From a virus (taxonomy: Duplodnaviria > Caudoviricetes), in IMG/VR virus record IMGVR_UViG_3300030606_000010, positions 1 through 49,376 of that record: a stretch of 49,376 nucleotides of DNA. One strand, written 5' to 3'. The notes under the pieces were generated by a model, which saw nothing but the letters and a program-made list of their open reading frames with translations, was not told the origin of the DNA and searched no databases. Below, in pieces: positions 8,567 through 42,684 of the stretch. Within the stretch, counting starts at the first letter, position 1, and each line of letters begins with the position of its first letter. Both the position numbers and the translations under genes were made by a program.

Positions 8567-8875
8567 CTACCGAAGGCCTATCAGAGCCTCGAGGTCTTCC
8601 TCTTGACCGCCAACCTGCTGCTGCTGGGCGCGCGCCAACTGCGCCAGCATGTCCCTCACCGTTTGCTCGGAGACCTTGGCCTCACGCGCCTGGGATCCAC
8701 CCAGAATCTGGCCGAGATCCAGGCCGGCAACGCTCTCGAGCGGACGCTGCCTGGTCGCCTGAGCCTGCTGCATCCGGCGCTGCCGCTCATCCTGCTCCAT
8801 GAAGGACGAACCGCCCTTCTCAAGAAGTTGGGCCAGCGCCTCCCGAATCATCTGTCGGCGTTCCTCCTCGTCCAT
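8567..8875 (-). CDS. Hypothetical Gln/Glu-rich protein
   Basis: MDEEERRQMIREALAQLL; ATG lies inside the portal 3' end after a G-rich RBS. Confidence 0.6.
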   Translation of the reverse strand: MDEEERRQMIREALAQLLEKGGSSFMEQDERQRRMQQAQATRQRPLESVAGLDLGQILGGSQAREAKVSEQTVRDMLAQLARAQQQQVGGQEEDLEALIGLR

Positions 8876-11033
8876 TGCCACCCCCCTGAACGGCCCCCTG
8901 CGAGGCCTGAACTTCCATCTGGAGTCGCTCCATGATACCCCGCATGGCAAGAAGCAGGGCCTCGGCATCGCGGAACTTGCCGCGACTGACCGCCTCGAGA
9001 AGCGCTGACATCGTCTGCTGCTCGAACCCGGCCTGCGTGCCGGCGGCCTGCTGGGACTGCAAGAGTGCCTGGGTCTGCTGAATGTGCTCCACCCAGGTCT
9101 TGCGCATCTCGGTCGGCAACCGCTTGTACCCCTCTGTCTTTGTGACCCGAACGTGGTCCTCGATATGGACAGAAAGATCCTCGAGCGGCGAGACCTCCGG
9201 GGGCGTCCCCTCGGTCAGGAACCGCTGCCACTCCATGACGGCATTCTCGTGATCGAGCATCTGCGGCGGCGTGAGATCACCTGGCGTCGGATAGCGCAGC
9301 TGGTCCCTCAACCACTGAAGCTTCTGCGGGTCCTGCATGGCATCAGCATAGAGGCCAACCTGGATGCCCTGCATCAACTCCTGCCTGAGTTGGGTCTTCG
9401 ACTGGACGAGCGCCGAGTCGGCCTGGACCAAGATCTCGTACCTCAGGGGTATCTGCTGGGCGCCGGCCATGAACCCCTCGACGCGCGCCGTTGGACCAGC
9501 CATGGCGAAGAGCCTCCCCTCAGGGTAGAAGCGCCTCACGGTCTCGAGCGCCTTGTAGCCGAAGTCGATCCAGGCATCCGACGAGAGCGCCAGCTGCGGC
9601 TGGCGCGTCTGGTTCTCGGCCTGCTGAAGAAACTCGAGCGCCTGGTTGGCCAAGGGGCTCTTGCCTGGCAGCTCACCACGCGCCGGCCCGAACTGGTTCG
9701 CGATGCGGTCCATATCTGCCAAGCTCTCGGAGAGATCCGCCACGAGCGCCTGCGACAAGGATGGCGGCGAGATCCACTTCGGCTCGGTAACGCCCCTCAG
9801 GCGACGAGGCCCGCTCGTCAGCGCATCCTGTGGAATGCCTGACCCGTGCGGATCCCAGATCCACGGAAGAGCCGTGAGGTCCCTGTTCTGGCTTAAGCGA
9901 AGCCGGTCCTTGTTGTACATCTTCTGAGCCGGCCAGACCTCGGTCATGACGGAGTGGGACCAGAAGCGATTGTGCATCGGGAGCTGAGGAAGATGGACGT
10001 ACTGATAGCCGGCCCGATGTGGGAGCGGCTGCGGCGTCACGCTCACGATCTCATCGTTGACCACCTTGATGACGATGCCCTCTTCGTACCCTTCCTGCAA
10101 CTTCGCCAGCTCGTGATACTCGTAAACGAAGGCCTCATCCTTGGCCCTCGTGTCCACGTAGTAGTTCTCGAGCTTGGCCCCGATGGCTCGACTGAAGTCC
10201 GAAGCCAGCTCGTATGCAGGGTCGCTCGCCGTCGTGTCCGGCTTGGCCTCGTACCTGTACCTGGCCCAGATCTGAGCAAGTGATATTGGCGCCTTCTCGA
10301 TGACCCAATCGCAATCATTCATGAGCGGCGTCTTCGTACCGGGTGGCACATGTATATGGAAGGGCGACGGCGCGTAAATCTCGAGGTCCCCCTCGATGCC
10401 GTAACTCACGTTGGCGGCCAGCTGACCAGTCTCGGGATCGATGACAGGCTGTCCAAGCCCATCAACGATCGGCATCTCCTTCTTCATCACCTGGCCGCCC
10501 ATGGGGTTGAAGCACAACTTCAGGAACCCGTCCGACATGATCACCATGTCGAGGATCGCGAAGAGCCTGCGGACGAAGACCTTGTGCTCATGGTAGATGG
10601 CCCGCAGGATCTTCTCGGCGGTCCGAGCCTTGATCACATCCTCCGAGTCACCGGAAGCCGGGACCACGGCCCAATCTGGGCTCGCGCCGAGAAACGACGA
10701 AGCTAGAGCGAAGGCTGACTTGAGCATCAAGTTGGACGTGTGCTTCTCGTCCTCACCCAGAGCTATCGGATGCCAGCGCCCATCGGCATCCCGCTCGATG
10801 TGCTGGAGACCGTACACGGCCAAAATGTTTCGCGCCCACTCCGAGTGCATGTACTGCGTCTTGTAGTTGTGCGAAGCCTCGGCGAGCTGCGTGATGTACT
10901 TGGCGACGCGCTGCTCCCCGATCTTTTTGACCGTCTTGGCAGGGTCGCCCATCTTGCCGCGCACACCGAGGCGCCGCGACCAGGTTGAGAGTGGACTCGA
11001 ATCAATCGGTTCCTTGTCCATCACTCTCTCCAT
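8820..11033 (-). CDS. Portal protein (P22-like)
   Basis: 737 aa between TerL and scaffold; 'VVPASGDSEDVIKARTAEKIL', 'GFLK', 'SPFHIHV.P', 'FWSHS....WPAQK.YN' and C-terminal 'DLSVHIEDH' patterns. Confidence 0.8.
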   Translation of the reverse strand: MERVMDKEPIDSSPLSTWSRRLGVRGKMGDPAKTVKKIGEQRVAKYITQLAEASHNYKTQYMHSEWARNILAVYGLQHIERDADGRWHPIALGEDEKHTSNLMLKSAFALASSFLGASPDWAVVPASGDSEDVIKARTAEKILRAIYHEHKVFVRRLFAILDMVIMSDGFLKLCFNPMGGQVMKKEMPIVDGLGQPVIDPETGQLAANVSYGIEGDLEIYAPSPFHIHVPPGTKTPLMNDCDWVIEKAPISLAQIWARYRYEAKPDTTASDPAYELASDFSRAIGAKLENYYVDTRAKDEAFVYEYHELAKLQEGYEEGIVIKVVNDEIVSVTPQPLPHRAGYQYVHLPQLPMHNRFWSHSVMTEVWPAQKMYNKDRLRLSQNRDLTALPWIWDPHGSGIPQDALTSGPRRLRGVTEPKWISPPSLSQALVADLSESLADMDRIANQFGPARGELPGKSPLANQALEFLQQAENQTRQPQLALSSDAWIDFGYKALETVRRFYPEGRLFAMAGPTARVEGFMAGAQQIPLRYEILVQADSALVQSKTQLRQELMQGIQVGLYADAMQDPQKLQWLRDQLRYPTPGDLTPPQMLDHENAVMEWQRFLTEGTPPEVSPLEDLSVHIEDHVRVTKTEGYKRLPTEMRKTWVEHIQQTQALLQSQQAAGTQAGFEQQTMSALLEAVSRGKFRDAEALLLAMRGIMERLQMEVQASQGAVQGGGNGRGGTPTDDSGGAGPTS

Positions 11034-11256
11034 GCATCACCGCCTCACGCGCCAGCTCAAGCCTGCGCCTCTTCTCGAGCTCGTACTGACTGAGTAAGTC
11101 GGACTCCTCGTCCGACTGGATGACACGCCCAGCCCTGAGCGACCTGATGGCGATATCTTTCACCTCGAGCATCGCTATCGAAGCTGTCCTGGCCATGAAC
11201 GCCACGGCAATAACGGCCACGACTACCGCGGGAATGACGATCATCAGCTCGGCCAC
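11002..11256 (-). CDS. Small membrane protein upstream of portal
   Basis: N-terminal hydrophobic helix LMIVIPAVVVAVIAVAFMA followed by a charged tail. Confidence 0.6.
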   Translation of the reverse strand: MAELMIVIPAVVVAVIAVAFMARTASIAMLEVKDIAIRSLRAGRVIQSDEESDLLSQYELEKRRRLELAREAVMHGESDGQGTD

Positions 11257-11906
11257 ATCGTCACCATGTCAGCCGGAGACTGCTTCAGCTCGAGCACGTA
11301 AGCGTAATGATCCGTCTGTATGGGAACTCCATTCGCGGTCTGTTCGGAAGACACCTGCGCGACCATCAACTGAATCCGCTCGAGCCCGGGCCTGAACCCA
11401 AGGATGGCAATATCACCGAGATAGAAGATCTGCATCATGTCGGGAAACGCTACAGCCCCAAGCTCACCTGCATCAAGGGCCACCTCGTCCACGAGCTCGT
11501 CGAGATACAGTATCGTCCTGTTAGGAGCGCCGTTACCAGGCACAACGTCACCGTCGGCCTGAAGCTCAATCTGGGGCCTCGTAAGCCACACGCAGAATCT
11601 CCTGTTGCTATCATCCCAGACAAGACCCGTATCGTACCCCTCCCAGCGGAACCTATCGAACATCAGCACAAGAAGACACATCGAGCCGACATCCAGCCCG
11701 TCGAGGTCGGCCTTGCGCCAGTGGACCTGAGGATCCTGGACGGGGCTGTCCTTCGCCGCAAGCGTTAAAGGCCCTATCGCCCTGATGCCCGAGTGAAGCC
11801 CAACAACCCTCCTGTACCGCAGGTACCTCGTTGGCTCAACCACACCGTCAGCGCCAGGACCCTCCGGCACGACCTCGAGCTCCAATCGAATAGTCGCCGT
11901 ATTCAT
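11244..11906 (-). CDS. Hypothetical beta-rich protein
   Basis: ATGA-coupled to the upstream gene; weak N-terminal similarity to 11903-13060. Confidence 0.65.
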   Translation of the reverse strand: MNTATIRLELEVVPEGPGADGVVEPTRYLRYRRVVGLHSGIRAIGPLTLAAKDSPVQDPQVHWRKADLDGLDVGSMCLLVLMFDRFRWEGYDTGLVWDDSNRRFCVWLTRPQIELQADGDVVPGNGAPNRTILYLDELVDEVALDAGELGAVAFPDMMQIFYLGDIAILGFRPGLERIQLMVAQVSSEQTANGVPIQTDHYAYVLELKQSPADMVTMWPS

Positions 11907-13060
11907 ACGATCCCAAAGAAGTACTGCACGCGAGCAGTGTGGCCGGGTGGTGCGCTCAGAACCAGCGTAGCGCCAGTTCGCTCGTAGTAATCCCTATCGT
12001 AGCAATCGTTGATGTCAACAAGGCCGCCGAAGAGAATAGTTTCAACGGCTATCGTGTCCAGCCTTCTCATAACCTGCGCCTCGGACATAAGGAAGACCGG
12101 AGAGAAGTAGAACTCACTGTCCGCATCGATGATGTTCGGATTGCTGAACTCGCACGCGGTGATGCGCGTCCAGTCGATGTCTATATCAGCTGGCGCGGTC
12201 CCCTCCCTGAAGGCCTCCATGTCCTGCTTTCTGACCTGAAAGAGGCGCCAGCGATCTTCGTCGTCCGCATGAGGATTCATGATGTATCTGCGCCCAGCGG
12301 CACCAGCGATATTGACCTCACCGGCACGCATATCCTCAAGCCACCCCAGATCATCCGTCGTCCCGGCTGCCACTGCCACATCGTTGGGATTCGTCAACGA
12401 ATCAAACGGATAACTCAGCAACGTGAACCACACACCCGAAGCTGGGTTCCTGTCGCGCACCCAGAAGCACATGACGAGCGAGTCGTCTACCGAGCCAAGG
12501 TTCTGCGGATTGTCACGACCCCAGATGAGCCTCGAGACCCCGATGTTACCCATCCCTGAGCGAAACGGAATGTGGCCCGTGTAACCACCGTGCTTGACGA
12601 TCTGGTCGGTAACGCGCTGGAACCTGTAACGTCCGGCGGTCCCAGAGCCGGTGTAGTGACGGAACCTCGGCGTCTCGTCGTCAAAGACGGGCGCCAACTC
12701 CGTGGCCGTCTCGAAGGGCTCAGCCGAAAAGTCAAAGAGCATCCTTGGGGTGCTCAAGGCGCCGGCAGCCGGCGCCTGCTGGCCGATGCTGTAGTAGACC
12801 CCCGGCGTATCCGTCGTGAGCACCAGAAGCGACCGCGAGATCTTGTTCTTGTAGGTCTCGCTGACGTCCGGATAGTCCTTCAGCGGATGGGGAATTTGAA
12901 ACTGCCTGTAGAGCTCGCCCGGCTGAAGCTCGACAGTGCCTGGACCAATGAGATGCTGAATGCCGGGGTAGACCTTGTTGACCTCCGGCATAAGGGGGTT
13001 GCCCGACTGGTCCACGACGGACAGCCTCAGCCGGGCCTTCCAGGTCTGGTTGAGCGGCAT
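11903..13060 (-). CDS. Hypothetical protein with possible carbohydrate-binding jelly-roll domain
   Basis: GAGGTGA RBS. Central 'LVMCFWVR...WRLFQV...DIDWTRIT..EF...EFYFSPVFL' resembles galactose-binding-like domains. Confidence 0.6.
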   Translation of the reverse strand: MPLNQTWKARLRLSVVDQSGNPLMPEVNKVYPGIQHLIGPGTVELQPGELYRQFQIPHPLKDYPDVSETYKNKISRSLLVLTTDTPGVYYSIGQQAPAAGALSTPRMLFDFSAEPFETATELAPVFDDETPRFRHYTGSGTAGRYRFQRVTDQIVKHGGYTGHIPFRSGMGNIGVSRLIWGRDNPQNLGSVDDSLVMCFWVRDRNPASGVWFTLLSYPFDSLTNPNDVAVAAGTTDDLGWLEDMRAGEVNIAGAAGRRYIMNPHADDEDRWRLFQVRKQDMEAFREGTAPADIDIDWTRITACEFSNPNIIDADSEFYFSPVFLMSEAQVMRRLDTIAVETILFGGLVDINDCYDRDYYERTGATLVLSAPPGHTARVQYFFGIV

Positions 13061-13061
13061 C

Positions 13062-15017
13062 TCACCTCAGCGGGTAGTAGCGCTCCTGCCATGAGGCTGG
13101 CTTACCCGAAGAGGATTTGAACACGCGCCGGCCTTCCTCGTCAACTTGCCGGCGTGGCCTCGACGGAGCTTCCGGAGCGCGCATGATGGTCCGGAGGAAC
13201 GCGCACAGGTACTGAAAGGCGTCAGCCGAGTGGTCCTCGTCCTTCGAGCGGGCCTCGTCGAGCTGCTTCTGCCCAGGCTCGACCTCCGGCAGCCTGAGCG
13301 TCCTGAGCTGCTGGCGAAGCTGGTGAAGCGAGTAGTCTATGAGAACCCCGGGCTGAAGCTCGATGGGTTTGCCGCACTGGATGCAGCGGTCCACACCGAT
13401 GCTGACGACACGACACCCCTCACAGCACCCGTTGTCGTCGAGGAGAGTTGCCGCCGAGTTCAGCCCGAGCTTGCGCCTGTTGAGTCCCTGGCCATGGTCA
13501 ACGCCACCCGCCGAGAACGTCGTGATGTGCGGCCATGCCGGAGGCTCGGCGTACTCGGCTGCGTAACCTGCGCCCGTTGGATCGCCGATCGTGTACTTGA
13601 TTCTCTCAAAGGTAGCCTCGTCCGACAGCTCTTTCCCGCCGGGAATGACGGTCTTCAGGTAGGCCGAAACCTGCGCCTTGTGCCACTGGACGATACGCTC
13701 CGACTGGTAGTGATTCGCCCAGAGCCTCAGCCAGTGGCCGTTCCAAGAACCGAGCAGGATAGAAGTTGGGTTCTTGAAGCCGTAGTCAACCGAACCGACG
13801 AGCTCCCATGCCGACCCCCACTCCGGCTCGACCGAACGGACGTGCCGGTCTTCACTGTAGGTGGGGAATCGCCTCTCCCCGAAGTCCGCTTCAGGGTTGA
13901 TGTCCATCTCAACCTGAACCTCAGGGCTCGTCGGCGAGAGATTCAGCCTTGAGCAAAGCCTCGAGAGGTAGGTCTCGTTGTCGCGCTCCGGAGTCGAGCG
14001 GTAGTGAATACGGAAGACGTCCCTATCGCCCTGCATCCAGTAATGCAGCCCGCGACAGATCCGGAGGATCATGCCTTCTTGGCCTTCTCCTTGAGCTTGG
14101 CCTCGCGTCGCTTGGCCGACAACTCCAAGCTCTTCTGCCGGATCTCCGCTCTCGCCTTGCGCATGGCTTCCTGCTTCACCCGGTCTACCTCCCCGCCACG
14201 ATTGCCGCGCTTGTTGAATCCGCAGGAACACTCGTAACGCCTCGTCTCCCGTGAAAACTTGAGGCACTTCTGGCGGCACTTCGGACAGTAAAAGCTCGGG
14301 ACCGTCGAATCGCTTGAGTCGCTCAACCCCACACCTCTCTGTGTACCCGGCGTTTTCGTTGATCGTGCCAGAACAAATGAGCCGCCTCGTTGCCGGACCG
14401 ATGTTCTGGAGTAGCTTCCTCCAGCTGCGTTGCGTACCAGCCTCGTCGATCCAAACGAAGCTCGCCCCGAACTGCCTGAAGATGCCACCCTGCGGAAGCG
14501 CCTGAATGGAACTATTGTGGGCCTTACCCATGAAGGTGTGGATGACGATCCTGTCCGGATTCGACTGCCTCTCCACATCCCACAGGCGCCGTATGTCTGG
14601 TACGTCCTCCGCGTCGTCGATACGATCCACCATGTAGGCTATCCGGTCCAGGATTTCCGAGGACTTCATCTCGTTTTCCGACAGGACAAAACCTCTCGTG
14701 TCCGGGAAGAAGAGCGCTTCTTTCCCGGCCATGGCCGCAATGTCCCACGTCACGCGCGTGCGACGACTCTTTGGATAGTCAGCGTTGCCGTCGAGCGCCC
14801 AGCCGCAGCTTACCGCGACTTCCGTTGCGCCGTTCGGCAGGAGCATCGGCGTGCGCTTCTCAGGCGGAAGCTCCGGATCGTAGCTGCGGCAGCGCTCCGA
14901 GAGCCAAAGGAAGTTGGCCTTCGCGTCGTTGCGCATGTAGCGCTCGACAGCCCGCCGCGTCTCGAGGCTTTGTAGGAGCTCAAGGATCTCTTGGAGCTTG
15001 AGCGATACCTCAGGCAT
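13062..15017 (-). CDS. terL: Terminase large subunit, interrupted by an overlapping gene
   Basis: Walker A-like PKSRRTRVTW, Walker B FVWIDEAG, coupling motif ICSGT, nuclease motifs VDYGFKNPT, IGDPTG and DHSADAFQY. Confidence 0.85.
   Translation of the reverse strand: MPEVSLKLQEILELLQSLETRRAVERYMRNDAKANFLWLSERCRSYDPELPPEKRTPMLLPNGATEVAVSCGWALDGNADYPKSRRTRVTWDIAAMAGKEALFFPDTRGFVLSENEMKSSEILDRIAYMVDRIDDAEDVPDIRRLWDVERQSNPDRIVIHTFMGKAHNSSIQALPQGGIFRQFGASFVWIDEAGTQRSWRKLLQNIGPATRRLICSGTINENAGYTERCGVERLKRFDGPELLLSEVPPEVPQVFTGDEALRVFLRIQQARQSWRGGRPGEAGSHAQGESGDPAEELGVVGQATRGQAQGEGQEGMILRICRGLHYWMQGDRDVFRIHYRSTPERDNETYLSRLCSRLNLSPTSPEVQVEMDINPEADFGERRFPTYSEDRHVRSVEPEWGSAWELVGSVDYGFKNPTSILLGSWNGHWLRLWANHYQSERIVQWHKAQVSAYLKTVIPGGKELSDEATFERIKYTIGDPTGAGYAAEYAEPPAWPHITTFSAGGVDHGQGLNRRKLGLNSAATLLDDNGCCEGCRVVSIGVDRCIQCGKPIELQPGVLIDYSLHQLRQQLRTLRLPEVEPGQKQLDEARSKDEDHSADAFQYLCAFLRTIMRAPEAPSRPRRQVDEEGRRVFKSSSGKPASWQERYYPLR
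14069..14326 (-). CDS. Nested zinc-finger protein (85 aa) in the +1 frame within terL
   Basis: GAGGTG RBS then TTG at 14326; CPKC...CSCG followed by a basic helix; codons end mostly in G/C; its TGA overlaps an in-frame terL ATG at 14072. Confidence 0.7.
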   Translation of the reverse strand: MSDSSDSTVPSFYCPKCRQKCLKFSRETRRYECSCGFNKRGNRGGEVDRVKQEAMRKARAEIRQKSLELSAKRREAKLKEKAKKA

Positions 15018-15402
15018 CGCCGGCCTTCACGACGTCCAGGATCTGCGGCGCCTCCGAGATGAGGAGCTCCCTATCCTCCGGCTCGAGCCGCTTGAACTTC
15101 CTGGCGATCTCTGCAACGAGCTCCCGGTTCGACACATGGACGCTGAGCCTCGTCTGCTCGGTCTTGACCTGCTTCGTGACGGGCACGCCACCACGATCGA
15201 GTATCTGGGCTGCGATGGCCCTGAGCTCACGAGCGAGCTTCACCCTGTCGTTGACCGTGAGCCGCCTCTCATCGCCCTCGAACTGACCAGCCCTGAAGGC
15301 CTCGGCGAAGCTCTCGAGAATCTCGCCAAGGGTGTCGGTTGCGTTTGGAAGTAAGAGCTCAAGGCGCGCCCTCGCTGCCTGAGGGCTGAGCTTTACTGCC
15401 AC
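15010..15402 (-). CDS. Putative terminase small subunit
   Basis: AGGGAG RBS and GTG at 15402; helical 130-aa protein overlapping the terL start. Confidence 0.5.
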   Translation of the reverse strand: MAVKLSPQAARARLELLLPNATDTLGEILESFAEAFRAGQFEGDERRLTVNDRVKLARELRAIAAQILDRGGVPVTKQVKTEQTRLSVHVSNRELVAEIARKFKRLEPEDRELLISEAPQILDVVKAGDA

Positions 15403-15772
15403 GCCAGTACTCCCTGGCCCGCTTGTCTGACCGGCCCGGACATGGCTGCATCGTACCATGCTCGTGCCTCGGCTGGCCGTCCACAACGCTCGTGCCGCCT
15501 TCTTCCAGGTGGATCCAGCCTGGCGTCTTCTCGCATCGAATGCAGGAGTGCCTCTTGGCCTGAATGTTACTGAACCTCAGAAGCTGCGCCGGCACAGGGA
15601 AGCGCTCACCGTCCTCGATCCAGCGCGTCACCGCCAACCTGAAGGTCTCGTCGTCCATCCTGCCGGAAAGCGCGAAGTAGAAGGCTTCGGTAACTTTCTC
15701 CGTGAGCTTACGCCCGAAGGCTGCCGCCAGGCGAACTATGCCGTCCTGGAAGCAGGCATCGCTAAGCTTCAT
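15359..15772 (-). CDS. Putative helicase loader/inhibitor-like protein with Zn ribbon
   Basis: Directly after the initiator; 'F..AV..W......FP.PAQL' motif (SPP1 G39P-like N-domain) then CxxC..GW...PC. Confidence 0.55.
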   Translation of the reverse strand: MKLSDACFQDGIVRLAAAFGRKLTEKVTEAFYFALSGRMDDETFRLAVTRWIEDGERFPVPAQLLRFSNIQAKRHSCIRCEKTPGWIHLEEGGTSVVDGQPRHEHGTMQPCPGRSDKRAREYWRGSKAQPSGSEGAP

Positions 15773-16637
15773 GTGACCTCCCGGCCATCCACCTGGCCAT
15801 CACAGCCTCGTTTTCGTCGATGACGCCCTCCACCTCATCCTCCCAACGCTGGCCGTTGAGCCAGGTTGACGGATGGGGAACGACCGAGCGGCCGTCGGAC
15901 GACGACTTGCCCCGCTCGAGCTGAGCGCCGGCAACGGACTGCGCCCTGACAGCAGCGAGAATGACTCCCTGGAGCTCGCGGTCCGGCCTGAGCTTCAGCC
16001 AAGCCTTGCGAGCCTGGCCCTTGCCAACCTTGCGCGGGTAGGCCTCCCAGAAGCTCTCGAAGCCGTTCGAGTTTCGTTCGTGCTTCCCGGGAGGGGGGCC
16101 GCCGGAATTGGGGGTGGCTCCGGATTCGGTCCCGGCTTTGCCGGGCCCGAAGGAGGCATCGAAGGTGAGGTTCCCGGCGGCTTGAGGCTCCGAAGGGGCG
16201 CTTGCAGCCTGCCCTCCCCCCGAGGGGGGATGTCGATGTGCCGTCTTCGGCACAGCGACAGGGGGGTCTTCTTCTCCTGGTGGATTCTTTCTTACTGGAT
16301 CCTCGGGTGGCAACTGGTTGCCAGGGGGGGGTGGCAACTGGTTGCCAGGGGGGGTGGCAACGCTCTGGGCTTCCAGGGCCAGCCTGTAGCCGTTCGAGCT
16401 TTGCGCGCCATTCTGGCGCTGGCGCGCCTCGATGGTCAGGTGCCCCAGGGCTTCCAGGTCGCGCAGGACGTACCTTAGGGCACGATCCTTGATGCCAACG
16501 TCGAGCGCTATCAGCCGATGGCTGGGCCAGCAGTAGCCGTCGTCGTCGGCCGAGTCAGCCAGACGCAGGAGCACCAGCTTCTGGGTGGTGGTCAGGCCCT
16601 GGGCTTGCCAGGCGGCTGCGGTGTAACGCCACGCCAT
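15762..16637 (-). CDS. Phage replication initiator (N-terminal winged HTH)
   Basis: KLVLLRLADSADDDGYCWPS HTH_36-like N-terminus; C-terminal FESFWEAYPRKVGK..A.KAW...PHPSTWLNGQRWEDE; AAGGAGG RBS. Confidence 0.85.
   Translation of the reverse strand: MAWRYTAAAWQAQGLTTTQKLVLLRLADSADDDGYCWPSHRLIALDVGIKDRALRYVLRDLEALGHLTIEARQRQNGAQSSNGYRLALEAQSVATPPGNQLPPPPGNQLPPEDPVRKNPPGEEDPPVAVPKTAHRHPPSGGGQAASAPSEPQAAGNLTFDASFGPGKAGTESGATPNSGGPPPGKHERNSNGFESFWEAYPRKVGKGQARKAWLKLRPDRELQGVILAAVRAQSVAGAQLERGKSSSDGRSVVPHPSTWLNGQRWEDEVEGVIDENEAVMARWMAGRSHEA
16305..16361. repeat. Palindromic iterons inside the initiator gene (probable replication origin)
   Basis: TGGCAACTGGTTGCCA at 16308-16323 and 16332-16347, half site TGGCAAC at 16355-16361, separated by G-runs. 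Confidence 0.65.
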
Positions 16638-30061: not shown

Positions 30062-30441
30062 CAGGGCACCAGGACGCTGGCCGAGTCGGACTTGGACCCT
30101 GAGGCCTCGTGGACGCACTGGAAGACGTAGGGCAAGGGGTCTGACGGCAGGACAAGTGTGAAGGTTGTACCGAAGAGCGTCGAGCCGACGTTGCCGCCGT
30201 CGACACTCAACTTGTAGATGCAGCCGCCGCCGCAGCTCGCATGCTGCTGAGGCGAGCAGGACACCTCGATCGTCCCGTTCGTACCGATGACACCGCCTAC
30301 GTAGCGGGCCTGGATATCCACGAAGAACAGGAAGTCTTCGGGCGTGAGGACCGGCGGGATGACCGGATCGTCCTCCCACCACTCGCACGCCGAGAACGTG
30401 AGCACCAGCATGGCCGCGACCAGCAGAAGCAGTCGCTTCAT
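30061..30441 (-). CDS. Putative lipoprotein
   Basis: MKRLLLLVAAMLVLTFSAC lipobox; beta-rich mature region with four further Cys. Confidence 0.7.
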   Translation of the reverse strand: MKRLLLLVAAMLVLTFSACEWWEDDPVIPPVLTPEDFLFFVDIQARYVGGVIGTNGTIEVSCSPQQHASCGGGCIYKLSVDGGNVGSTLFGTTFTLVLPSDPLPYVFQCVHEASGSKSDSASVLVP

Positions 30442-32432
30442 GGCTTCACCCCCACCCCGAGGATCGAGTACTTCTCGCCCTCTTGGTCATCAACGATTTG
30501 GATCTGCTCGAAGCCTGAGCGCTTGAGCAGGTGTAGTAGTTGCGGCTCATCGAAGACCCGCACGTGGTCCTCGTTGTAGCCACCCTGTTCGTCGTACTTC
30601 TTCGTGGGCACGTAGGCCAGGATGCGCCCGCCGGGCTTCAGGATGCGCAGGATCTCTCGACAGGTCCAGTCGGGGACAGGGAGGTCTTCGAGGTTGTGCG
30701 AGGTGAGGACCCAATTGTAGCTGTCCGTGGCGTAGGGCAAGCGCTCGCGCACGTCGCCGGTCTTGTCGGCCCACATGTAGGGCGTCCTGTCGAAGGTATC
30801 GCCGAAGCCCCTGTCCAAGCCGCAGGCCAGGTTAAGGCCTCTCGCGCCGAGCATGAGGCGCTCCCAAAGACCCGGGCTCTTTGACACCTCGGAGGGCATC
30901 GTCTTGCGCCAGCCCGTGACCTTCTCGATGGCCTGAAGGACGTGATCGGCGCTCAGCTCCGTCATACACGGGGCCGAGATGCCCGTGTGGACGTCTATCC
31001 TCAGGCGCGCACAGCCGGAGTAGAGACGCGGCTGTGGGCCTTCGAGGTGGCAGCCAAGGCAGGCCAGGTGCTCGGCACGTACCGGCTCGGCGAAGGCTCG
31101 CTCAACGATGACCCGCTCGGGAGGCACGGCTCCAAAGAGGACGACGGCCGGCGTCCGCATGGCGTAGGCCAGGTGCGCCGGGAAGGAGTCGACGCCAACG
31201 AAGAGCTTGGCCCCACCGATGAAGGCACCGACTCGACGGAATCCCACTTTCCTTAGATCGATGTCCCCGATCATCGGCGTGAGTTGATCGCCCACGACAC
31301 CGATGGGACCAAGGCTCCTCGCTCGCAGCTCGAAGATAAGCATCTCCCAGAAGTCTCTCGGTGCGTCCTTGCCGGGCCAGCCCGTGAACCCTGGGTGGAC
31401 GATAACCTGCGGCACCTCGTCACCCTGGGCCGGTGCCAGGAGCTTCTCCTCATCGGTCAGGTAGAGCTCCGGCATCCTGAGTGGGATGGGCTGCGGCACG
31501 CCGATGGCCTGGGCGTAGGCGATGGCGATGGGCACGTTCGGCCGCGACTCGTAGGCGCCATCGAGGTCCACGTAGTCGGCGGGGCCAGCGAGGTCAGATA
31601 CCGGCAGGATGAGCGGATTGTTCTCGAAAAGCTCTGGCCACGGGGTATCCGCGTAGAGCTTCCAGTGCGGTACCCTGTCCGCCACGATGCGGGCCAGTGC
31701 CGTCAACTGGAAGACGTCGCCCCGGGCCGCCTTGCGGCTCACAACGATGCGGCGCTTGAAGCCACCACGGATGACGTGGCCCCAGCGGGCCAGGAGCCGC
31801 ATGTTGTTGATAGTCGCGAGGCCCTTGATGTCGATGATACCTTCGGCCTCGACGACCTTCGACGTCACGGCCCGCTCGTGCTGGTAGCCCGGCACGTCGA
31901 CTTCAACCACCTTCCAACCCAGCTCACGGATGCGTAGGCAGAAGTCCGCGTCCTCGGCATAGGCGAAACGGAAGGTCTCCGTGTCGAAGCCGCCCATCTT
32001 CATGAAGAGATGCTTCGGGACCATCATGCACGAGCCTTCGATGTAGTCGATGCGCTCGCCAGCCGCTCCGTCGCCTGTTTGCGTGAGCGTGCGGCAGCCG
32101 CCCTTTGGTCCTGTCACCCCCACCCGAGGGATGGTAACGAAGGGCTCGAAGAGCGCCTCGAGCCAGCCAGGGCCGACCACCGCATCCGAGTTGAGGAAGA
32201 CGATGTAATCCGTGTCAGCCTTGGCGGCGAGCCTGTTGGCGGGCTCGCTGAAGCCGAGGTTCTCACTGGAATACCAGATTCGTGCAGCATCGACTCGTTG
32301 GACGAGGGCTTTAGTCCCGTTAATCCATACGATCACATCGCAATCATCGCCTGCGGCGCTGATGGAATCACAGCAACGTTCGAGAAGCTTCTCATCGCCG
32401 TAGTGAACGATGCAGACCGTGAAGAGCTTCAC
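30438..32432 (-). CDS. Fusion of GT2, GT9 (heptosyltransferase-like) and SAM methyltransferase domains
   Basis: NLGFS..AN, FLNSD, IEGSCMM, GGFD..F..EDAD (GT2); ARGDV, HPG..WPGK, FVGVDSFPAHLA (GT9); LNLACG, SHNLED, RILKPGG (methyltransferase). Confidence 0.85.
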   Translation of the reverse strand: MKLFTVCIVHYGDEKLLERCCDSISAAGDDCDVIVWINGTKALVQRVDAARIWYSSENLGFSEPANRLAAKADTDYIVFLNSDAVVGPGWLEALFEPFVTIPRVGVTGPKGGCRTLTQTGDGAAGERIDYIEGSCMMVPKHLFMKMGGFDTETFRFAYAEDADFCLRIRELGWKVVEVDVPGYQHERAVTSKVVEAEGIIDIKGLATINNMRLLARWGHVIRGGFKRRIVVSRKAARGDVFQLTALARIVADRVPHWKLYADTPWPELFENNPLILPVSDLAGPADYVDLDGAYESRPNVPIAIAYAQAIGVPQPIPLRMPELYLTDEEKLLAPAQGDEVPQVIVHPGFTGWPGKDAPRDFWEMLIFELRARSLGPIGVVGDQLTPMIGDIDLRKVGFRRVGAFIGGAKLFVGVDSFPAHLAYAMRTPAVVLFGAVPPERVIVERAFAEPVRAEHLACLGCHLEGPQPRLYSGCARLRIDVHTGISAPCMTELSADHVLQAIEKVTGWRKTMPSEVSKSPGLWERLMLGARGLNLACGLDRGFGDTFDRTPYMWADKTGDVRERLPYATDSYNWVLTSHNLEDLPVPDWTCREILRILKPGGRILAYVPTKKYDEQGGYNEDHVRVFDEPQLLHLLKRSGFEQIQIVDDQEGEKYSILGVGVKP

Positions 32433-32563
32433 TGCGGCCAGGCCTGAAGGAGCATGGCCATAGCGATGAGGCCCACAGCGAATGAGACGAAGCGAATGCG
32501 CTCGACAACGCATCCGATGCCAGCGGATATGACCGCTATCAGAAGAAGGGCGAAGACGATCAT
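32429..32563 (-). CDS. 44-aa two-helix membrane protein, holin candidate
   Basis: ATGA-coupled to the endolysin; two hydrophobic segments. Confidence 0.5.
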   Translation of the reverse strand: MIVFALLLIAVISAGIGCVVERIRFVSFAVGLIAMAMLLQAWPQ

Positions 32564-32895
32564 TGGACCCCCTGCCACTCGAACGAGTAGTGGTTCCCGT
32601 CCGGCCTTGTGAAGTCGCCGCCCCAGCGGGCAAGCGGATGGAGCGTCTTCCAGTACTCGCCGAGCGGACGATGGCTCTCGCTGTCGCGCTGGTAGACGCC
32701 GTTTATGAAGAGGTTCAAGTCCTGGGCAAGCCGGTAGACGTGGGTCGAGCGTGGGTGGCCACCAATGAGGTTGTTGACCTCTGGGCTGCGGTAGCTCCAG
32801 GCCAATGTCACGACCCACCCTTGCGAGTAGGCGTTTATGATTAACTTCGACAGCGCCCTGGCGAACTCGCCCTGAAGTATGACCAGATCACTCAT
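32560..32895 (-). CDS. Endolysin, M15-family (L-Ala-D-Glu type) peptidase
   Basis: YRS, STH..RLAQDLNLF, WGGDF..PDGNHYS motifs. Confidence 0.85.
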   Translation of the reverse strand: MSDLVILQGEFARALSKLIINAYSQGWVVTLAWSYRSPEVNNLIGGHPRSTHVYRLAQDLNLFINGVYQRDSESHRPLGEYWKTLHPLARWGGDFTRPDGNHYSFEWQGVQ

Positions 32896-33107
32896 TGCAC
32901 GTTCTTCGCTTTCCGCTTTGTCGGGAGTTGCCTGAAGAGGGCAGACAATTGAGCTTTAAGCTCGAGCGTTGCCTCGTCGAACTCCGTGTCAAGAACGCTC
33001 AATTCAGATGGCTCGATACCGACGAGCAACCGCTGCGTCTCGGCCATGGCGAACCGCATCTCAATTTCCATGGGACTACGATTCCTCGTCAGGCGATCTT
33101 TCGCCAC
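32892..33107 (-). CDS. Small hypothetical protein
   Basis: GAGG RBS; coupled to the endolysin. Confidence 0.5.
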   Translation of the reverse strand: MAKDRLTRNRSPMEIEMRFAMAETQRLLVGIEPSELSVLDTEFDEATLELKAQLSALFRQLPTKRKAKNVQ

Positions 33108-33459
33108 GGCGCCTCAATTCGCGGAGCTGCTCATTGATCTTGGTGAGCTGGACGAGCATGCTACGAAGCTGGTCCTCTCGCCGCTCCCACATGCTCCTGA
33201 GCTCTCCGAGTTGGCGGTTGAGATCGTCTCGCGGCACATACCCGGAGAGCTGCTGTCTCAGAAGGGAAAACTCGCGAGTCGCCTCCCTGCTCTGCTCAGC
33301 TATCTGCACCCTGAGGTTGCTGACTGCGGTATCGAGCTTGTCTTGAGCTTCTTGCAGTGGTGACGTCATGTCCCCGCGCACATTGCGATGCACCCCATAC
33401 AGAACGCCGACCGCCACGATCAAGCCGACGACGATCTGCACCCACACATCGGGACTCAA
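33076..33459 (-). CDS. Single-TM coiled-coil protein (holin/antiholin or i-spanin candidate)
   Basis: N-terminal TM VWVQIVVGLIVAVGVLYGV then coiled coil, upstream of the endolysin. Confidence 0.55.
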   Translation of the reverse strand: MSPDVWVQIVVGLIVAVGVLYGVHRNVRGDMTSPLQEAQDKLDTAVSNLRVQIAEQSREATREFSLLRQQLSGYVPRDDLNRQLGELRSMWERREDQLRSMLVQLTKINEQLRELRRRGERSPDEES

Positions 33460-33472
33460 GGTGCCTCACCGC

Positions 33473-35386
33473 TTACGCTCCGTGCCACTTGTGGTTGTAC
33501 CACTGCCTGTGCTCCGCGAGCATGTTGCCGAGCTCGGCCTTCGTGTAGAGCTTATCGAAGGTCGAGCCGGCGTGGTGGACACACTTGGCCGAGAGGATGA
33601 CCCCGGCCTTATAGCCGTGCGCAACGACCCTGCGCACGAAATCGGCGTCCTCATAGTAGCCGGGCGAGAAGCGCTCGTCAAACCCGGAAAGCCTTTGCCA
33701 GACGTCAGCTCTCACGAGAAATAGGCTCTGGTAGAAGGGCCCTCCGAGCGGGTAGTACCTGCCGCCCTGAGCTGCATCCTCCCAGACCTCGCGCACGCCA
33801 CCTGAGTAGACCTCCCAGGCCAGCTCAACCTGTGATTTCTCGCCCGACACGCGGAGTACGACCGGGGCCACCAGTTGAAGCGCGTTCGCTCTCGCCTCGG
33901 CCAAGAGGTACTTCACCATGCGATCGTCGGGCAGCGCGTCGTCGTTCCAGATGAGAAGCCACTCCGGATGCAGGCGTTCGATGGCCATGGCGGCAGCCGT
34001 ATTCACGTTGCGCGGGTATCCGGCCTCCACGTCGTCCTTGGCGAAGACCACCTCTACCCCCTGCTCCCGGAGGGCCGCCTCGAGCTGCTCACGGTCAACT
34101 GGCCTTGGCCACTCGCGTGGGACGTAAGGCACGATAGCTGCCACCTGTACCCGTGCCTCAGCGTCCATGCGGATGAGGGCCTGGGGTTTCGCGATGCAAC
34201 CTTCGAGGTGCCTGACGAGCTTGGTCCACTGGCGGTGAACGACACTGTACGAGTAGCGCGAGATGGCCCGCGCACGAGCCTCAACACCCATCGCTACGAG
34301 CAGCTCACGGCCGCGCAGGTAGGCGTCATGGAGAGCTTCGAAGACGTCCTCAGGTGAAACGTAGGACCACTGGCTCAACTTCCAACTGAGAAAACTCCCG
34401 CGAGGCGCTACCTTCCAGGCCCCATCAGCCGTCTCCTGAAGAGCGTGAGCGCTGGTCACGATGGTCGGTGTACCGCACAGCTCGGCTTCGACGGCTGTCA
34501 GACCAAAGCCCTCGCTTTTCGATGGAAGAAGGAGGACATCCATGGCCGAGTAGAGGTCGGCCATGTAGCTCGTGGGACGTCCGACTATCGTGTGGTAGTC
34601 AGTCTCCTGCGCCCAGCTCTGGCGCGGAATGCCGCAAACCTCGCGCACCTGGTCAAGCACCATCGGCGGGTGTTCGATCGTGGGCTTCGTGTGGGCCAGG
34701 AAGAGTAAGTCGGCGAATCCCACGGTCTGACCGAGGCGGGAGAAGGCTTCAACCGCCTCGAAGAGGCCCTTTCTAGAGGGCCATCCCTCCCAATCCCCGA
34801 CGAAGCCGACAATGAAAGCGTCCTGGCTCAGGTTCAGCCGGCGGCGAGCAGCCGCCTTGGGCTGCGGCCTGAAGACGACCGGGTCCACGGTGTGCGGCAC
34901 GTAGAAGGCATTGGGACAGCCGTGCCACTGCTCGAGTTGACCTAAAGCCCACTCGGTTAGAGTGAGGACAGTATGCGCACCAGCCAGGGAATGTCGGTGG
35001 TAGTCGGCCAACGGCGGTCCATCATCGACCATGGCGTATGGAACCCACCTGAAATTGAAACGGCCCCAACCGGAAAGGAAGGGACCGCCAGGCACGCGGG
35101 AGTGGAGGCCGCAGGCGTCGTAAAGAGTGAGAACATAGTCGGGCCTGGTCTCGTAAACGTGCCCCTCGATGACGGAAGTTCCAGAGTCATCCGGTCCTCC
35201 CGGCAGCACCGTGATCGGCGGACCGCCCTGCCACAGCGGAATCTTGAGGCTCGTCTGGTAGTGGCCCACGTTGACCGACATGGCGACCTCGACGCCAAGG
35301 TCAACGAGGTGGCGCACGATGAAGCGTGCCTGCTGTCCATAGCCCGTCGCCATCCACGGAGCGTTACTGTGGACGAGGACACGCAT
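33473..35386 (-). CDS. GT4 + GT2 glycosyltransferase fusion
   Basis: HSNAPW..TGYGQQ, RKG, LYSAMDVLLLPSKSEGFGL..VEA..CGTP (GT4); LIWNDD, GFDERF..GYYEDAD, HHAGST (GT2). Confidence 0.85.
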   Translation of the reverse strand: MRVLVHSNAPWMATGYGQQARFIVRHLVDLGVEVAMSVNVGHYQTSLKIPLWQGGPPITVLPGGPDDSGTSVIEGHVYETRPDYVLTLYDACGLHSRVPGGPFLSGWGRFNFRWVPYAMVDDGPPLADYHRHSLAGAHTVLTLTEWALGQLEQWHGCPNAFYVPHTVDPVVFRPQPKAAARRRLNLSQDAFIVGFVGDWEGWPSRKGLFEAVEAFSRLGQTVGFADLLFLAHTKPTIEHPPMVLDQVREVCGIPRQSWAQETDYHTIVGRPTSYMADLYSAMDVLLLPSKSEGFGLTAVEAELCGTPTIVTSAHALQETADGAWKVAPRGSFLSWKLSQWSYVSPEDVFEALHDAYLRGRELLVAMGVEARARAISRYSYSVVHRQWTKLVRHLEGCIAKPQALIRMDAEARVQVAAIVPYVPREWPRPVDREQLEAALREQGVEVVFAKDDVEAGYPRNVNTAAAMAIERLHPEWLLIWNDDALPDDRMVKYLLAEARANALQLVAPVVLRVSGEKSQVELAWEVYSGGVREVWEDAAQGGRYYPLGGPFYQSLFLVRADVWQRLSGFDERFSPGYYEDADFVRRVVAHGYKAGVILSAKCVHHAGSTFDKLYTKAELGNMLAEHRQWYNHKWHGA

Positions 35387-36003: not shown

Positions 36004-39000
36004 CTACCTGCCGGCCGTTGTCAAGCTTGGTGACTGCCTCAGCTCCATGAGGAAGAGACCGATGAGGTAGAGCTGCTGGCGTTCGACCTCGTCGCGGGGT
36101 TTACCTTTGAGGGTCACTCGCGCGAACCGCTCGAGGGCCTGCTCGTCGCCGGTGTCGGCGATGCGCTGGAGGACCATCATGTCCTTGTCGAGCTGGCCCT
36201 GATACGTCCCTGTCGAGAAGGCCTTGAAGAGCTCGGCCTGGGGCTCTGGATCCGGTACCTCCCGGAGGTCGGCGGCGAGGCTCGCCTGAAGCGCCCTGGC
36301 CTTCTGCGGGTCGCGGCTCCGCATGACGTCCTCTATCTGGGCTCCATAGAAGCTGCGGCGCGTCTTGAGGAAGGTCGCCATAACGGCGGCCGCCGACTGC
36401 TCGTTGCCGGTCTCCCTGGCCGTGTCATAGGCCTCGATGAGCTTCTCGCGCAGGCCCTCGAGCTGGTAGAGATCGCGCTTGGCCTGCGTCGAGAGTGAGG
36501 CCGCGAAGCGCCCGATGAGCGGATTGCTCCTGGCGAAGACCTGACCCCTGACCACGGCCGGCGTCACGCCTTCCCAGCTCTGGGCCGTCATGTGATCGGC
36601 GATCTCGGTGGGCGTTGCGCGCCGGCCCTCCTCGCGGCTTCTGGGTGTGCCGTGCTCGATCATGGAGGCGATGGCGCCCTGCCTGGCCTTATCCGCTACC
36701 TCGGCCTTGCGGCTCATGGAGCGGACGAGGATCCTCTCGGCAACGTCCTCGGTCGGCGTGAGGCCGATGGCCTGGGCGAGCTCGTTGCCGCGCTGGGTAA
36801 TTGTGCCGACACGACCCCGCCTGACGGTTGCGCCTTCAGCCAAGCGCGAGCCGCGCACGAGGTCGCGCATCATACCCGACGTTGCCAGGATCCTGTCGCC
36901 CGGCAGCTCGACGTAGTTCTCGCGGGCCGAGGGACGGAACTGGATGGACTCCCCAAGGACGCCCGCGTAGCTGGCCATGCCCGAGGCGCCGGCATCCTCG
37001 AAGAGCTGAGCCAGACTCACGAGGCCCTTGCCCGGCAGGTTCGCCACGGCCTGAGCGCCAGGGTGAGCCATGGCGGCGCCAGAGACACCCCAGCGGCCGA
37101 CGTCCGATGACTTGACCTCCTGGCGCAGCTCCGCGCGCGGCGCCTGGGCCTGTGCCTGGGCCGCCTCCGTCACGGGGACGCCCAGGCGCTCGGCCATGTA
37201 GCGCGCCTGCTCGGCGGCCTCGGAGACACCGGCGTGGATCTCGACGAAGGGCGCCACGGGGGGCCCGCCCAAGACGGCCATGATGCGCTGACCGATGGTC
37301 TGGTCGGACTTACCTGCCGTGAGTCCCGAGAACGGCAGGTTCGGCTTCAGGCGTCCGGCAACGTCGACGCCAGCGGCAGGCCCAGCGCCCGCCCAGACGC
37401 CATCCTTCGTCTCGAAGTCGATGAGCGCCCGCTCCCAATCCTCTCCTGTCTTTGGCGCGACAAAGCCGACTGTGTCGATGGCCCACTCGATCATCGGCAG
37501 CGCGCGCGGCCCGCCGATGGCATAGAGCATCCCCAGGAAGGCCAGCTTCTGACCGAAGCTCAGGCGCTGCGCGAACATCTCGATCTGGTGGCGGCTGAAG
37601 TCCAGGAACTGCGTGGCGCTCTCGGCCCAGGGCGCATACTCCTGGATGAAGACGGGCCTGTTCATGCGGTTGTAGGTGCCCTGCGTCTCCTGCATCGCCG
37701 CGACCGCACGGTCCTTGATCCAGCGCGTCGGGTCATCCGAGGCGAGCGCTTCCCGGATGCCGCGCTCCGGGTCAAACCACGCCTTGGCCTTGTCGAGGTC
37801 TCCGGCATCCGACGCCTCGAGCGCCTTGAGCCTTGCGAGCGACGCCTCGTCCAGCATGCCGGGACCAACGTCACCGCCGGCCGCGACGGCGCGCTCCATC
37901 TCTGGAATGCGTGCCCTGAGCGTCTTCCAGTCGGAGATGAGGTCCCGCTCGGTGGGAGCTATCCAGCCATCGTAGAAGGCGCTCGAGATCTTGCCTGTTG
38001 TCCGGAACTCCTCGAGAGCATCGAAGCCCCTGAGCGCCTGAGCGTAGAAGGTGGCGCCCCTGTTGACGCCTTCGGTCGAACGGAACATTACTCCGGCCGC
38101 CTCAAAGGCCGCCTCTTCCGCACCCTTGACCATGCGCCTCAGAAGACCAGGATCGAGATCGCCCTCACCGAGCTCCCACCAGTGGATGTTTATGCCGGCG
38201 ACAGCCTCATCGTAGAGCGGGCGAACGTGGCTCAAGCCGCGCCCATAGATGGCGCCTGCGTCGGCAAAGAACCCCTGCATGCCAGGAATGTTCCTCATGG
38301 CCTGCCCGGACATGCCCTGGTCATAGAGGAAAGCCGCAAGACCCCTGGGCGTGTCCTTGGGTCGCATCCTAAGAGCTGTGTGCAGGGGGATCGTCGTCAG
38401 GTTCACGAGCGCTGTCGAGGCCCGGCCGCCAATGTGCATCATGAAGCCGACACGCCTCGCGAAGTGGCTCACCTGGTCAAGCAGGTGGCTGTCGATGAGC
38501 TTGGCTACGGGGCGGCCGAATGGCCGCTGCATCGTCTCGGCCACGAGCCGCCTGAAGGCCGTGTTCATGGCGCCCGGCGGCTCCCAGAGCGCGCGCCTTC
38601 CCTCGACGAGACGGTCGATGACATTGGCGAAACGCTCGGACTTGATGACGCCCGTCTCGGTCAGGCGCCCGCCTGCCCGCTCGATGGCGCGGTTCCAGTG
38701 CGGCAGCGTGTCCTTGAGGAATCGGTAGCGCGCGGCCTGGGCCTCGGCCATGCCGAGCATCTTCTCTGGGTCCTTCACGTAGTCGAAGACCTTGTCCAGC
38801 CGCTCCTCGAGTGGCCCGTAGCGGAGCATCGAATCCGGGATCCAGTCCTGGTCGTAGGCGTTGAGGTAGCGCACCTCGCTTTTGGCCCAGAGATCCATCT
38901 CGCGTTCGAGCGTCTTGACGACCGCTGCGTCTCCGGCCTTCCGCGCTTCCGTGATCTGGCTTGCGATGAGCTTTCTCACCCCGGCCGAGTTGTGCAGCTT

Positions 39001-42678: not shown

Positions 42679-42684
42679 GGAGCG

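What the first reader, a model, noticed from the sequence alone, without database searches (positions are those of the whole stretch)
14069..14326. A complete zinc-finger gene is nested out of frame inside the terminase large subunit
Seen: just after the ATPase coupling motif (ICSGT), TerL has ~85 residues of low-complexity sequence with A/T-ending and rare codons such as TTA. The +1 frame over the same span has an RBS (GAGGTG), TTG at 14326, normal GC3, a CPKC..CSCG finger and a Lys/Arg-rich helix. Its TGA overlaps an ATG at 14072 (ATGA) exactly where TerL-like sequence resumes (MILRICRGLH...RIHYRS). None of the eight T-ending codons of the inner gene is followed by AA/AG/GA, so terL stays open. 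Inference: either full-length TerL tolerates a looped-out insert, or the locus gives up to three products (full TerL, the Zn finger, and a translationally coupled C-terminal nuclease fragment), or the insert is skipped by splicing or ribosomal bypass.
Basis: partly seen in the sequence, partly recalled or inferred. Interest (0 to 1): 0.75.

Follow-up and report, generated by a model that had tools for sequence, protein, structure and literature searches.

The report
Zinc-finger gene nested inside phage terminase
A soil phage's DNA-packaging enzyme gene contains a small zinc-finger reading frame shifted by one base, whose cysteine pattern can be traced in distant relatives; the enzyme gene likely swallowed it when two normally separate halves of the enzyme gene fused across it, so one stretch of DNA would make both a floppy loop and a separate small protein.

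Summary
The nested ORF is real. Over 14069-14326 codon usage switches to the +1 frame (adaptation index 0.65 against 0.34-0.37), and contigs from three other studies agree base for base. Every full-length relative carrying the insert (TerL cores 39-50% identical) can encode CxxC-x15-CxCGF[N/K] in +1 at one site only, so their likeness in the TerL frame is a shadow of the inner gene. Two corrections: TerL core continues to GPEL (residue 242), and the ATG at 14072 lies inside the ATPase domain. In the wider family TerL is two genes split at this junction (59 of 65 scored loci, query biased to split forms), often with passenger genes between. One close relative is fused without the insert; two or three end inside it. 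Best reading: a split terL re-fused by reading through a zinc-ribbon passenger, giving full-length TerL with a loop plus a separately initiated zinc ribbon. Splicing, intein and homing are unsupported. No DNA of close relatives and no expression data were obtained. The scan has noted split terminases with passengers, and a zinc ribbon nested in mazZ, on other DNA, but not this locus. Closest published case: the ShiLan insertion, which is a nuclease.

The parts
13062..15017 (-). terL, 651 aa, one open frame
   Evidence: PHROG 2 E 4e-9; Foldseek to T4 gp17, D6E, Sf6, HK97 TerL; homologues
14292..15017 (-). TerL N-half, residues 1-242 (Walker A-like PKSRR 82-86, Walker B-like WIDE 189-192, coupling motif CSGT 215-218, then ERCG...FDGPEL); matches the first gene of split relatives
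   Evidence: alignments; profile mapping; motif names are recalled
14073..14291 (-). TerL-frame insert, residues 243-315; absent in P0009, net 48-52 aa in four relatives; partly disordered in the model
14069..14326 (-). nested +1-frame ORF, 85 aa: zinc-ribbon-type CxxC-x15-CxCGFN plus basic tail; first 11-12 codons overlap conserved TerL core
   Evidence: codon statistics; pattern test in homologues
14222..14287 (-). four-cysteine module C14, C17, C33, C35
   Evidence: sequence; compatible at one site in each insert-bearing homologue
14332..14337 (-). Shine-Dalgarno-like GAGGTG, 5 nt before TTG 14326
14069..14072 (-). ATGA: stop of the nested ORF overlapping Met316, possible coupled start of the C-half
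   Evidence: Met lies 7 residues before the conserved Gly, 2-17 in 36 of 42 split relatives
13062..14072 (-). TerL C-half, residues 316-651 (last ATPase strands, lid, RNase H-like nuclease with D411, D479, D595-H-x-x-D599); matches the second gene of split relatives
   Evidence: domain naming from established TerL knowledge
15010..15486 (-). context: upstream ORF in the small-terminase position, overlapping the terL start by 8 nt; unassigned, start uncertain
   Evidence: no family match of note
8820..11033 (-). context: portal protein gene
   Evidence: PHROG 156 E 4e-8

Best explanation
terL is one open frame that contains a +1-frame zinc-ribbon ORF at the point where related terminases are split into two genes; it likely arose when a split terL re-fused by reading through a passenger gene, so ribosomes would make full-length TerL with the shadow sequence as a predicted loop and, from an internal start, a separate 85-aa zinc-ribbon protein. 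Shown: both frames, the codon switch, the cysteine pattern compatible in relatives, the split site in the wider family. Inferred: internal initiation at TTG 14326, zinc binding, a working TerL with the loop, and the order of events. In this genome the nested gene's stop may also re-initiate a spare C-half at 14072. The small protein is most likely a non-catalytic nucleic-acid binder (zinc ribbon plus basic helix) acting late, in packaging or late-gene control; that function is a guess from anatomy and position.
For: Codon adaptation follows the +1 frame only in this span. CxxC-x15-CxCGF[N/K] is compatible at 7 of 13,536 positions in all proteins held, one in each insert-bearing full-length protein, and in 0 of 2000 shuffles for each of 5 inserts. 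Columns V/V/V/V/M, L/L/L/V/M and R/W/W/R/R share only TG, TG, GG at codon positions 2-3, which spells C-x-C-G in +1. The TerL frame stays open in 1.3-2.8% of synonymous recodings of the inner protein, yet it is open here and in P0003/5/6, P0004, P0007, P0008. The model is TerL with well-ordered flanks. 59 of 65 scored wider-family loci are split at this junction, 33 with more than 100 nt between, holding HNH, glutaredoxin, kinase and unknown genes. The nearest outgroups in both half-trees are stand-alone halves.
Against: No DNA of any close relative was obtained, so the +1 frame in relatives is inferred from protein only, and stops there cannot be excluded. The inner protein has no detected homologue or family. 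The tree does not order P0009 (fused, no insert) against the rest: insert-bearing forms as one clade are not rejected (p-AU 0.37 and 0.43), which allows insertion into a fused gene. Open frames among relatives from the length-unbiased search are 3 of 6, which is not significant if the chance of staying open is 0.25 (P 0.17) but is at 0.1 (P 0.016); ordinary gene windows give 0.16-0.36. The split count comes from a query built of stand-alone C-halves. Residues 250-275 form a confident helix in the model, so part of the shadow may be structured. The TTG start cannot be formed at the same place in P0003, P0007 or P0008.
Confidence: 0.6

Rival explanations
1. Insertion into an already fused terL, as for the ShiLan domain: a small gene landed in a tolerant loop, in frame and stop-free; some lineages later picked up stops and fell back on two halves. 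Products are the same as in the best explanation; only the history differs.
For: P0009 is fused with a 9-residue link and lies at the unresolved base of the N-half tree. Insert-bearing forms can be one clade. Distant fused relatives P0029 and P0034 carry other long inserts at this site. Precedent in PMC11855218.
Against: Nearest outgroups are split. Met316 matches the natural second start. A foreign Lys/Glu-rich gene would seldom be stop-free in the host frame on arrival (1.3-2.8%). No nuclease to drive it: the 85 aa hold no His. The quick C-half tree joins P0009 with insert-bearing P0008 (SH-aLRT 98), though the careful smaller tree does not.
Confidence: 0.2
2. Recoding restores a two-chain terminase: ribosomes shift +1 near CTT TTA (14294-14289), making an N-half fused to the zinc ribbon that stops at 14069, and re-initiate at ATG 14072; the open TerL frame is then incidental.
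For: CTT-T followed by a rare TTA codon (6 of 7823 codons) lies right at the end of TerL core. The family works as two chains. Fused forms are rejected as one clade in the N-half tree (p-AU 0.009, simpler model), so open and closed states switch.
Against: The site cannot be conserved: after GPEL/DAEL relatives have G, A, V or S, and the distance to the first Cys varies. The codon switch begins near codon 231, at the TTG with its ribosome site, before the putative shift. No downstream structure stands out. P0004 and P0008 lack a Met, Val or coupled start just before the conserved I-x-x-[IL]-x-x-G strand.
Confidence: 0.1
3. The insert is removed by RNA splicing, protein splicing or ribosomal bypass.
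For: Inteins and introns are common in terL (passages of 10.1101/2025.01.02.630785; PMC7156551); one wider-family locus, L136, has an intein-like insert.
Against: No Pfam match for TerL, so no intein domain. No Cys/Ser start or His-Asn end at the borders set by P0009. No Rfam match at gathering score. Fold z -0.74. No joint in laid contigs, which are DNA only. Borders vary between relatives.
Confidence: 0.04
4. The +1 ORF is a chance shadow of a variable TerL linker and is not a gene.
For: Long open +1 frames are common in this GC-rich genome; Val/Leu-TG codons readily give Cys in +1; no homologue found; Atlas recognition 2255, below its 2300 mark.
Against: Largest codon switch among 2372 windows; exact spacing compatible in all insert-bearing relatives and in no shuffle; R/W and I/L/V exchanges that are silent in +1.
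Confidence: 0.05

Closest known systems
ShiLan domain and Pacc40 gp60 insertion (Arsenault, Gosselin, Gogarten 2025, PMC11855218; read: abstract, introduction, part 3 of 6, passages)
   Same: Stop-free, in-frame, non-spliced insert in a phage gene; a second gene hidden in another frame with a non-ATG start; host-frame product predicted to loop out.
   Different: Those encode HNH-type endonucleases (160-195 aa) with patchy spread, in a non-essential methylase, with no ribosome site found. Here: an 85-aa zinc ribbon with no His, a ribosome site, an essential gene, deep divergence, and a site that is a natural gene boundary in the family.
[quoted passage not shown]
   Same: Second reading frame inside a terL insert.
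   Different: No splicing domain and no nuclease here; the shadow would stay in the mature protein.
Naturally split large terminases (the wider family found here; Arthrobacter cluster AY 'ATPase domain' and 'nuclease domain' genes, from an earlier scan note and recall, not checked in print)
   Same: Same junction, same place of the second start, small passenger gene between the halves.
   Different: Here the first half has no stop and runs through the passenger into the second half. None of the 5 fused loci among 65 has room for a gene (18-96 nt). The junction lies inside the ATPase domain.
Nested phage genes by overprinting, such as lambda Rz1 within Rz (recalled; review PMC8227390 seen as search listing only)
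   Same: A complete small gene within another gene's open frame.
   Different: In overprinting the inner gene is new; here the inner frame has the normal codon usage and the outer frame is the derived, low-complexity one.
T4 gp17-like large terminases (PDB 3CPE, 5OE8, 4IDH, 6Z6D)
   Same: Fold and domain order (Foldseek E 3e-12 to 4e-7).
   Different: About 10% identity; a 66-aa insert after the coupling-motif helix and a Cys-rich insertion in the nuclease.

Membership tests
Large terminase (TerL) | N-terminal ATPase plus RNase H-like nuclease fold | tested here: met
   PHROG 2; model pLDDT 86 and Foldseek
Large terminase (TerL) | Position upstream of portal and capsid genes | tested here: met
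Large terminase (TerL) | Packaging activity with the insert in place | not testable with these tools
   needs biochemistry
ShiLan-type hidden-endonuclease insertion | Stop-free in the host frame, second ORF in another frame | tested here: met
ShiLan-type hidden-endonuclease insertion | Second ORF encodes an HNH endonuclease | tested here: not met
   no His in the 85 aa; no HNH match
ShiLan-type hidden-endonuclease insertion | Near-identical inserts in divergent hosts (homing) | tested here: inconclusive
   motif block 4-15 of 27 identical, no more conserved than the host core; only five lineages
Intein | Hint domain, Cys/Ser at the start, His-Asn before Cys/Ser/Thr | tested here: not met
Group I/II intron | Catalytic RNA core | tested here: not met
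   insert about 200 nt and almost wholly coding
Two-gene (split) TerL | Stop after the N-half | tested here: not met
Two-gene (split) TerL | Start codon 2-17 residues before the conserved Gly of the C-half | tested here: met
   Met316 is 7 residues before it; its use is untested
Zinc ribbon | Two Cys knuckles about 15 residues apart | tested here: met
Zinc ribbon | Match to a named family | tested here: inconclusive
   sub-threshold only: PF14768 E 0.005, NF011481 E 0.03, Atlas 0.86-0.87 to several zinc-ribbon clusters
Zinc ribbon | Zinc binding and fold | not tested
Programmed +1 frameshift | Conserved slippery site and stimulator | tested here: inconclusive
   CTT TTA in the window only; relatives' residues differ; no DNA of relatives

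The most novel reading that the evidence does not exclude
A nested gene born by engulfment: a two-gene terminase re-fused across a conserved zinc-ribbon passenger, and the clade still toggles between one-chain and two-chain TerL, with this genome making three products from one message (full TerL, the zinc ribbon, a coupled C-half), the zinc ribbon being a new packaging cofactor held at this spot.
Probability: 0.3. Interest if true: 0.78.

Novelty: new variant of a known kind. Interest (0 to 1): 0.62.

Why it matters
It shows a route to nested genes that is neither overprinting nor selfish insertion: an essential gene closing over its neighbour. It marks a point inside the TerL ATPase domain that tolerates a break, passengers, reversed order or a 50-70 residue loop, which bears on how the packaging motor is assembled. 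It also shows that a gene missed by gene callers can be traced in relatives from the outer protein alone, through exchanges such as Arg/Trp and Val/Leu/Met that are silent in the +1 frame. A small non-nuclease protein kept at this site across TerL lineages about 40% identical is a testable candidate for a new late function.

Tried and rejected
DNA of close relatives was sought and not found: viral contigs with P0001, A1, P0005, P0012, A6 and a WNGHWLR pattern, metagenome contigs (only this phage), genome contigs, GenBank phages (none for P0003; 12 records at 22-31% for P0009). A pattern scan for the zinc-finger spacing gave 85 loci, mostly antisense chance matches, none nested in a terL; L054 holds a free-standing ORF with the same spacing but is not shown to be related. 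Searches with the inner protein found nothing significant. The 'shorter' homologue search covered only 30-66 residues and was uninformative. The three-sequence fold failed (pLDDT 30). No RNA holder listed. Low-share runs X8-X11 gave no useful cover of the insert. No promoter or terminator consensus in 13000-16000. No prediction of a TerL-zinc ribbon complex was obtained, so binding is open. The substitution-class test over the whole 27-column block is only modest (77 of 192 against 783 of 2638, pairs not independent; 8 of 26 variable columns against 74 of 383); the weight rests on the motif columns. P0014 was left out of the trees as a chimera with ribosomal protein L25 on a 1132-bp contig. 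Rows dropped from the split count: 15 of 80 loci with only a C-half hit, and L136 (N hit ends at an intein-like insert); three loci first labelled fused were re-scored as split with reversed order. Literature searches with no hit; some searches gave listings with no evident match by title, and PMC7156551 proved to be about inteins. The library lacks most subscription papers, and I saw no supplements or repositories of the two Gogarten-group papers, which could list similar elements.

Full report
Setting. The window is a whole virus record with direct terminal repeats, held in soil metagenome runs. The minus strand carries a replication initiator, a gene in the small-terminase position, terL (13062-15017), two unknown genes, portal and major capsid. 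TerL is confirmed by PHROG 2 and by a model of mean pLDDT 86 that matches T4, D6E, Sf6 and HK97 terminases.

Observation. The +1 ORF 14326-14069, its GAGGTG site, cysteines, basic tail and ATGA overlap are as described. Codon adaptation, measured on 13 other genes of this genome, is 0.65 for the inner frame and 0.34-0.37 for the TerL frame over the same bases, against 0.62-0.66 on either side. The switch begins near codon 231, where the TTG lies, ends at codon 315, and is three times larger than in any of 2372 control windows. Contigs from three studies other than the possible source match without a change over 13924-14146 and 14166-14743; 19 bases rest on the possible source alone. Two of those three studies share year and habitat with the source and may be one campaign; X5 is from 2025.

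Relatives. Two searches gave the close clade (cluster members). P0003/5/6, P0004, P0007 and P0008 are full length with an insert; P0009 is full length without one; P0010, P0012 and P0014 end 4-11 residues after the first cysteine-pair position; P0011 is a C-half. P0009 shows that TerL core continues to GPEL (242) and resumes at ILRICRG (317), so the insert is net 66 residues here and 48-52 in relatives. But a Cys in the +1 frame needs an xTG codon (Val, Leu, Met) followed by a codon beginning with C or T. I asked where each protein could encode the window's motif CxxC-x15-CxCGF[N/K] in +1. It is possible at 7 of 13,536 positions, once in each insert-bearing protein and at the same place, never in P0009, and in 0 of 2000 shuffles of each of five inserts. 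Three columns vary as V/M, L/V/M and R/W and share only TG, TG and GG at codon positions 2-3, which reads C-x-C-G; P0008 has Met-Pro-Met-Arg there, where TG is forced. This is inference from protein: it shows compatibility, not the codons, and shared ancestry in the TerL frame contributes. No DNA of these relatives could be reached.

Is the TerL frame kept open? In this genome there is no stop, so translating the ATPase half gives full-length TerL unless recoding intervenes. Staying open is unlikely for this inner protein: 1.3-2.8% of synonymous recodings, P 0.018 by direct count, though this locus was picked for that feature. In ordinary genes the same frame is open in 16-36% of windows of 85-50 codons. 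Among relatives from the length-unbiased search 3 of 6 insert-bearing ones are open, which is significant at a chance of 0.1 and not at 0.25. Whether P0010, P0012 and P0014 end at stops or at contig edges cannot be seen; P0011 and P0012 share a contig length of 7616 and are likely one split gene, P0010 is on a 10 kb contig, P0014 is a chimera. In the model the flanks are well ordered, residues 240-246 and 283-313 are below pLDDT 50, and 257-275 is a helix.

The site. Distant hits were often N-halves of about 230 aa or C-halves of about 330 aa. A scan with a C-half alignment found 355 relatives, of which the best 80 were kept. Of 65 loci with both halves, 59 are split at this junction (19 adjacent, 33 with over 100 nt between, 7 with the N-half downstream), 5 are fused with short links and 1 was not scored; after removing near-duplicates 45 of 51 are split. 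The query favours split forms. Passengers include HNH endonucleases, glutaredoxin, a kinase, and small Cys-rich genes (11 of the 56 candidate ORFs were scanned, 5 matched a family); none resembles the inner protein. Split C-halves have a Met 2-17 residues before a conserved Gly in 36 of 42 cases; Met316 is 7 before it. By the model's strand order and established TerL anatomy, this start is inside the ATPase domain, before its last strands and the lid. Three neighbouring gene junctions use the same ATGA/GTGA overlap, but any TGA in a +1 frame makes an xTG codon in the outer frame, so the overlap alone is weak; P0003 and P0005 allow one, P0004, P0007 and P0008 do not at this place.

History. The nearest outgroups of the close clade are stand-alone N-halves (P0033, P0038, on 44 and 20 kb contigs) and stand-alone C-halves. 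Inside the clade the base is unresolved. All fused forms as one clade are rejected in the N-half tree (p-AU 0.009, LG+G4) but not in the C-half tree (0.26); insert-bearing forms as one clade are rejected in neither. Re-fusion of a split gene across a passenger is therefore the simpler reading, with later switching between open and closed, but insertion into a fused gene remains possible.

Mechanism. Most likely the ribosome reads terL straight through and the shadow peptide loops out, while a second ribosome site starts the zinc-ribbon protein, and its stop may restart a spare C-half. Frameshifting at CTT TTA is possible but not conserved. Splicing and intein models fail their tests. The inner protein has no His, no nuclease match and no detected homologue; weak matches point to zinc ribbons. 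A non-catalytic nucleic-acid binder with a late role is my guess.

Comparison. The layout works like the ShiLan domain (PMC11855218) but is not a member, since no HNH is encoded. It differs from inteins with out-of-frame nucleases in having no splicing domain. Six literature searches for nested genes in terL, split terminases or read-through fusion returned nothing, within a library that lacks most subscription papers. Earlier notes of this scan describe a split terminase with a passenger slot and a zinc ribbon nested in a mazZ linker on other DNA; they are unchecked leads, and none covers this sequence.

Verdict. A real, conserved nested gene in an essential phage gene, best read as a passenger engulfed by re-fusion of a split terminase. 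New variant of a known kind; interest 0.62.

Noticed in passing
window 13374-13424 (-), TerL residues 532-548: A Cys-rich insertion (CC..C / C..C) in the nuclease domain is conserved in the close clade and in many split C-halves; possibly a zinc site of TerL itself.
   Followed up: no
L151, L152, L156, L163, L165, L167, L176: Split terL with the N-half gene about 3 kb downstream of the C-half gene.
   Followed up: partly
L145:1343-3462: The slot between the terL halves holds five genes, including a cytidylyltransferase-like gene and an adenylylsulphate kinase-like gene.
   Followed up: partly
L136, terL region: An intein-like insert in the N-half, followed by a NUMOD3-HNH gene and another passenger before the C-half.
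   Followed up: no
protein P0014: Ribosomal protein L25 N-terminus joined to a TerL fragment on a 1132-bp contig; chimera or integration junction.
   Followed up: partly
window 30438-35386 and 36004-42684 (-): Two large glycosyltransferase-like genes beside a 2226-codon ORF with no PHROG match.
   Followed up: no
window 11244-13060 (-): Two unknown genes (385 and 220 aa) separate terL from portal.
   Followed up: no
L054:2447-2674: Free-standing phage ORF with CxxC-x15-CxCGFK and a charged tail, the same spacing as the nested gene; kinship not shown.
   Followed up: partly
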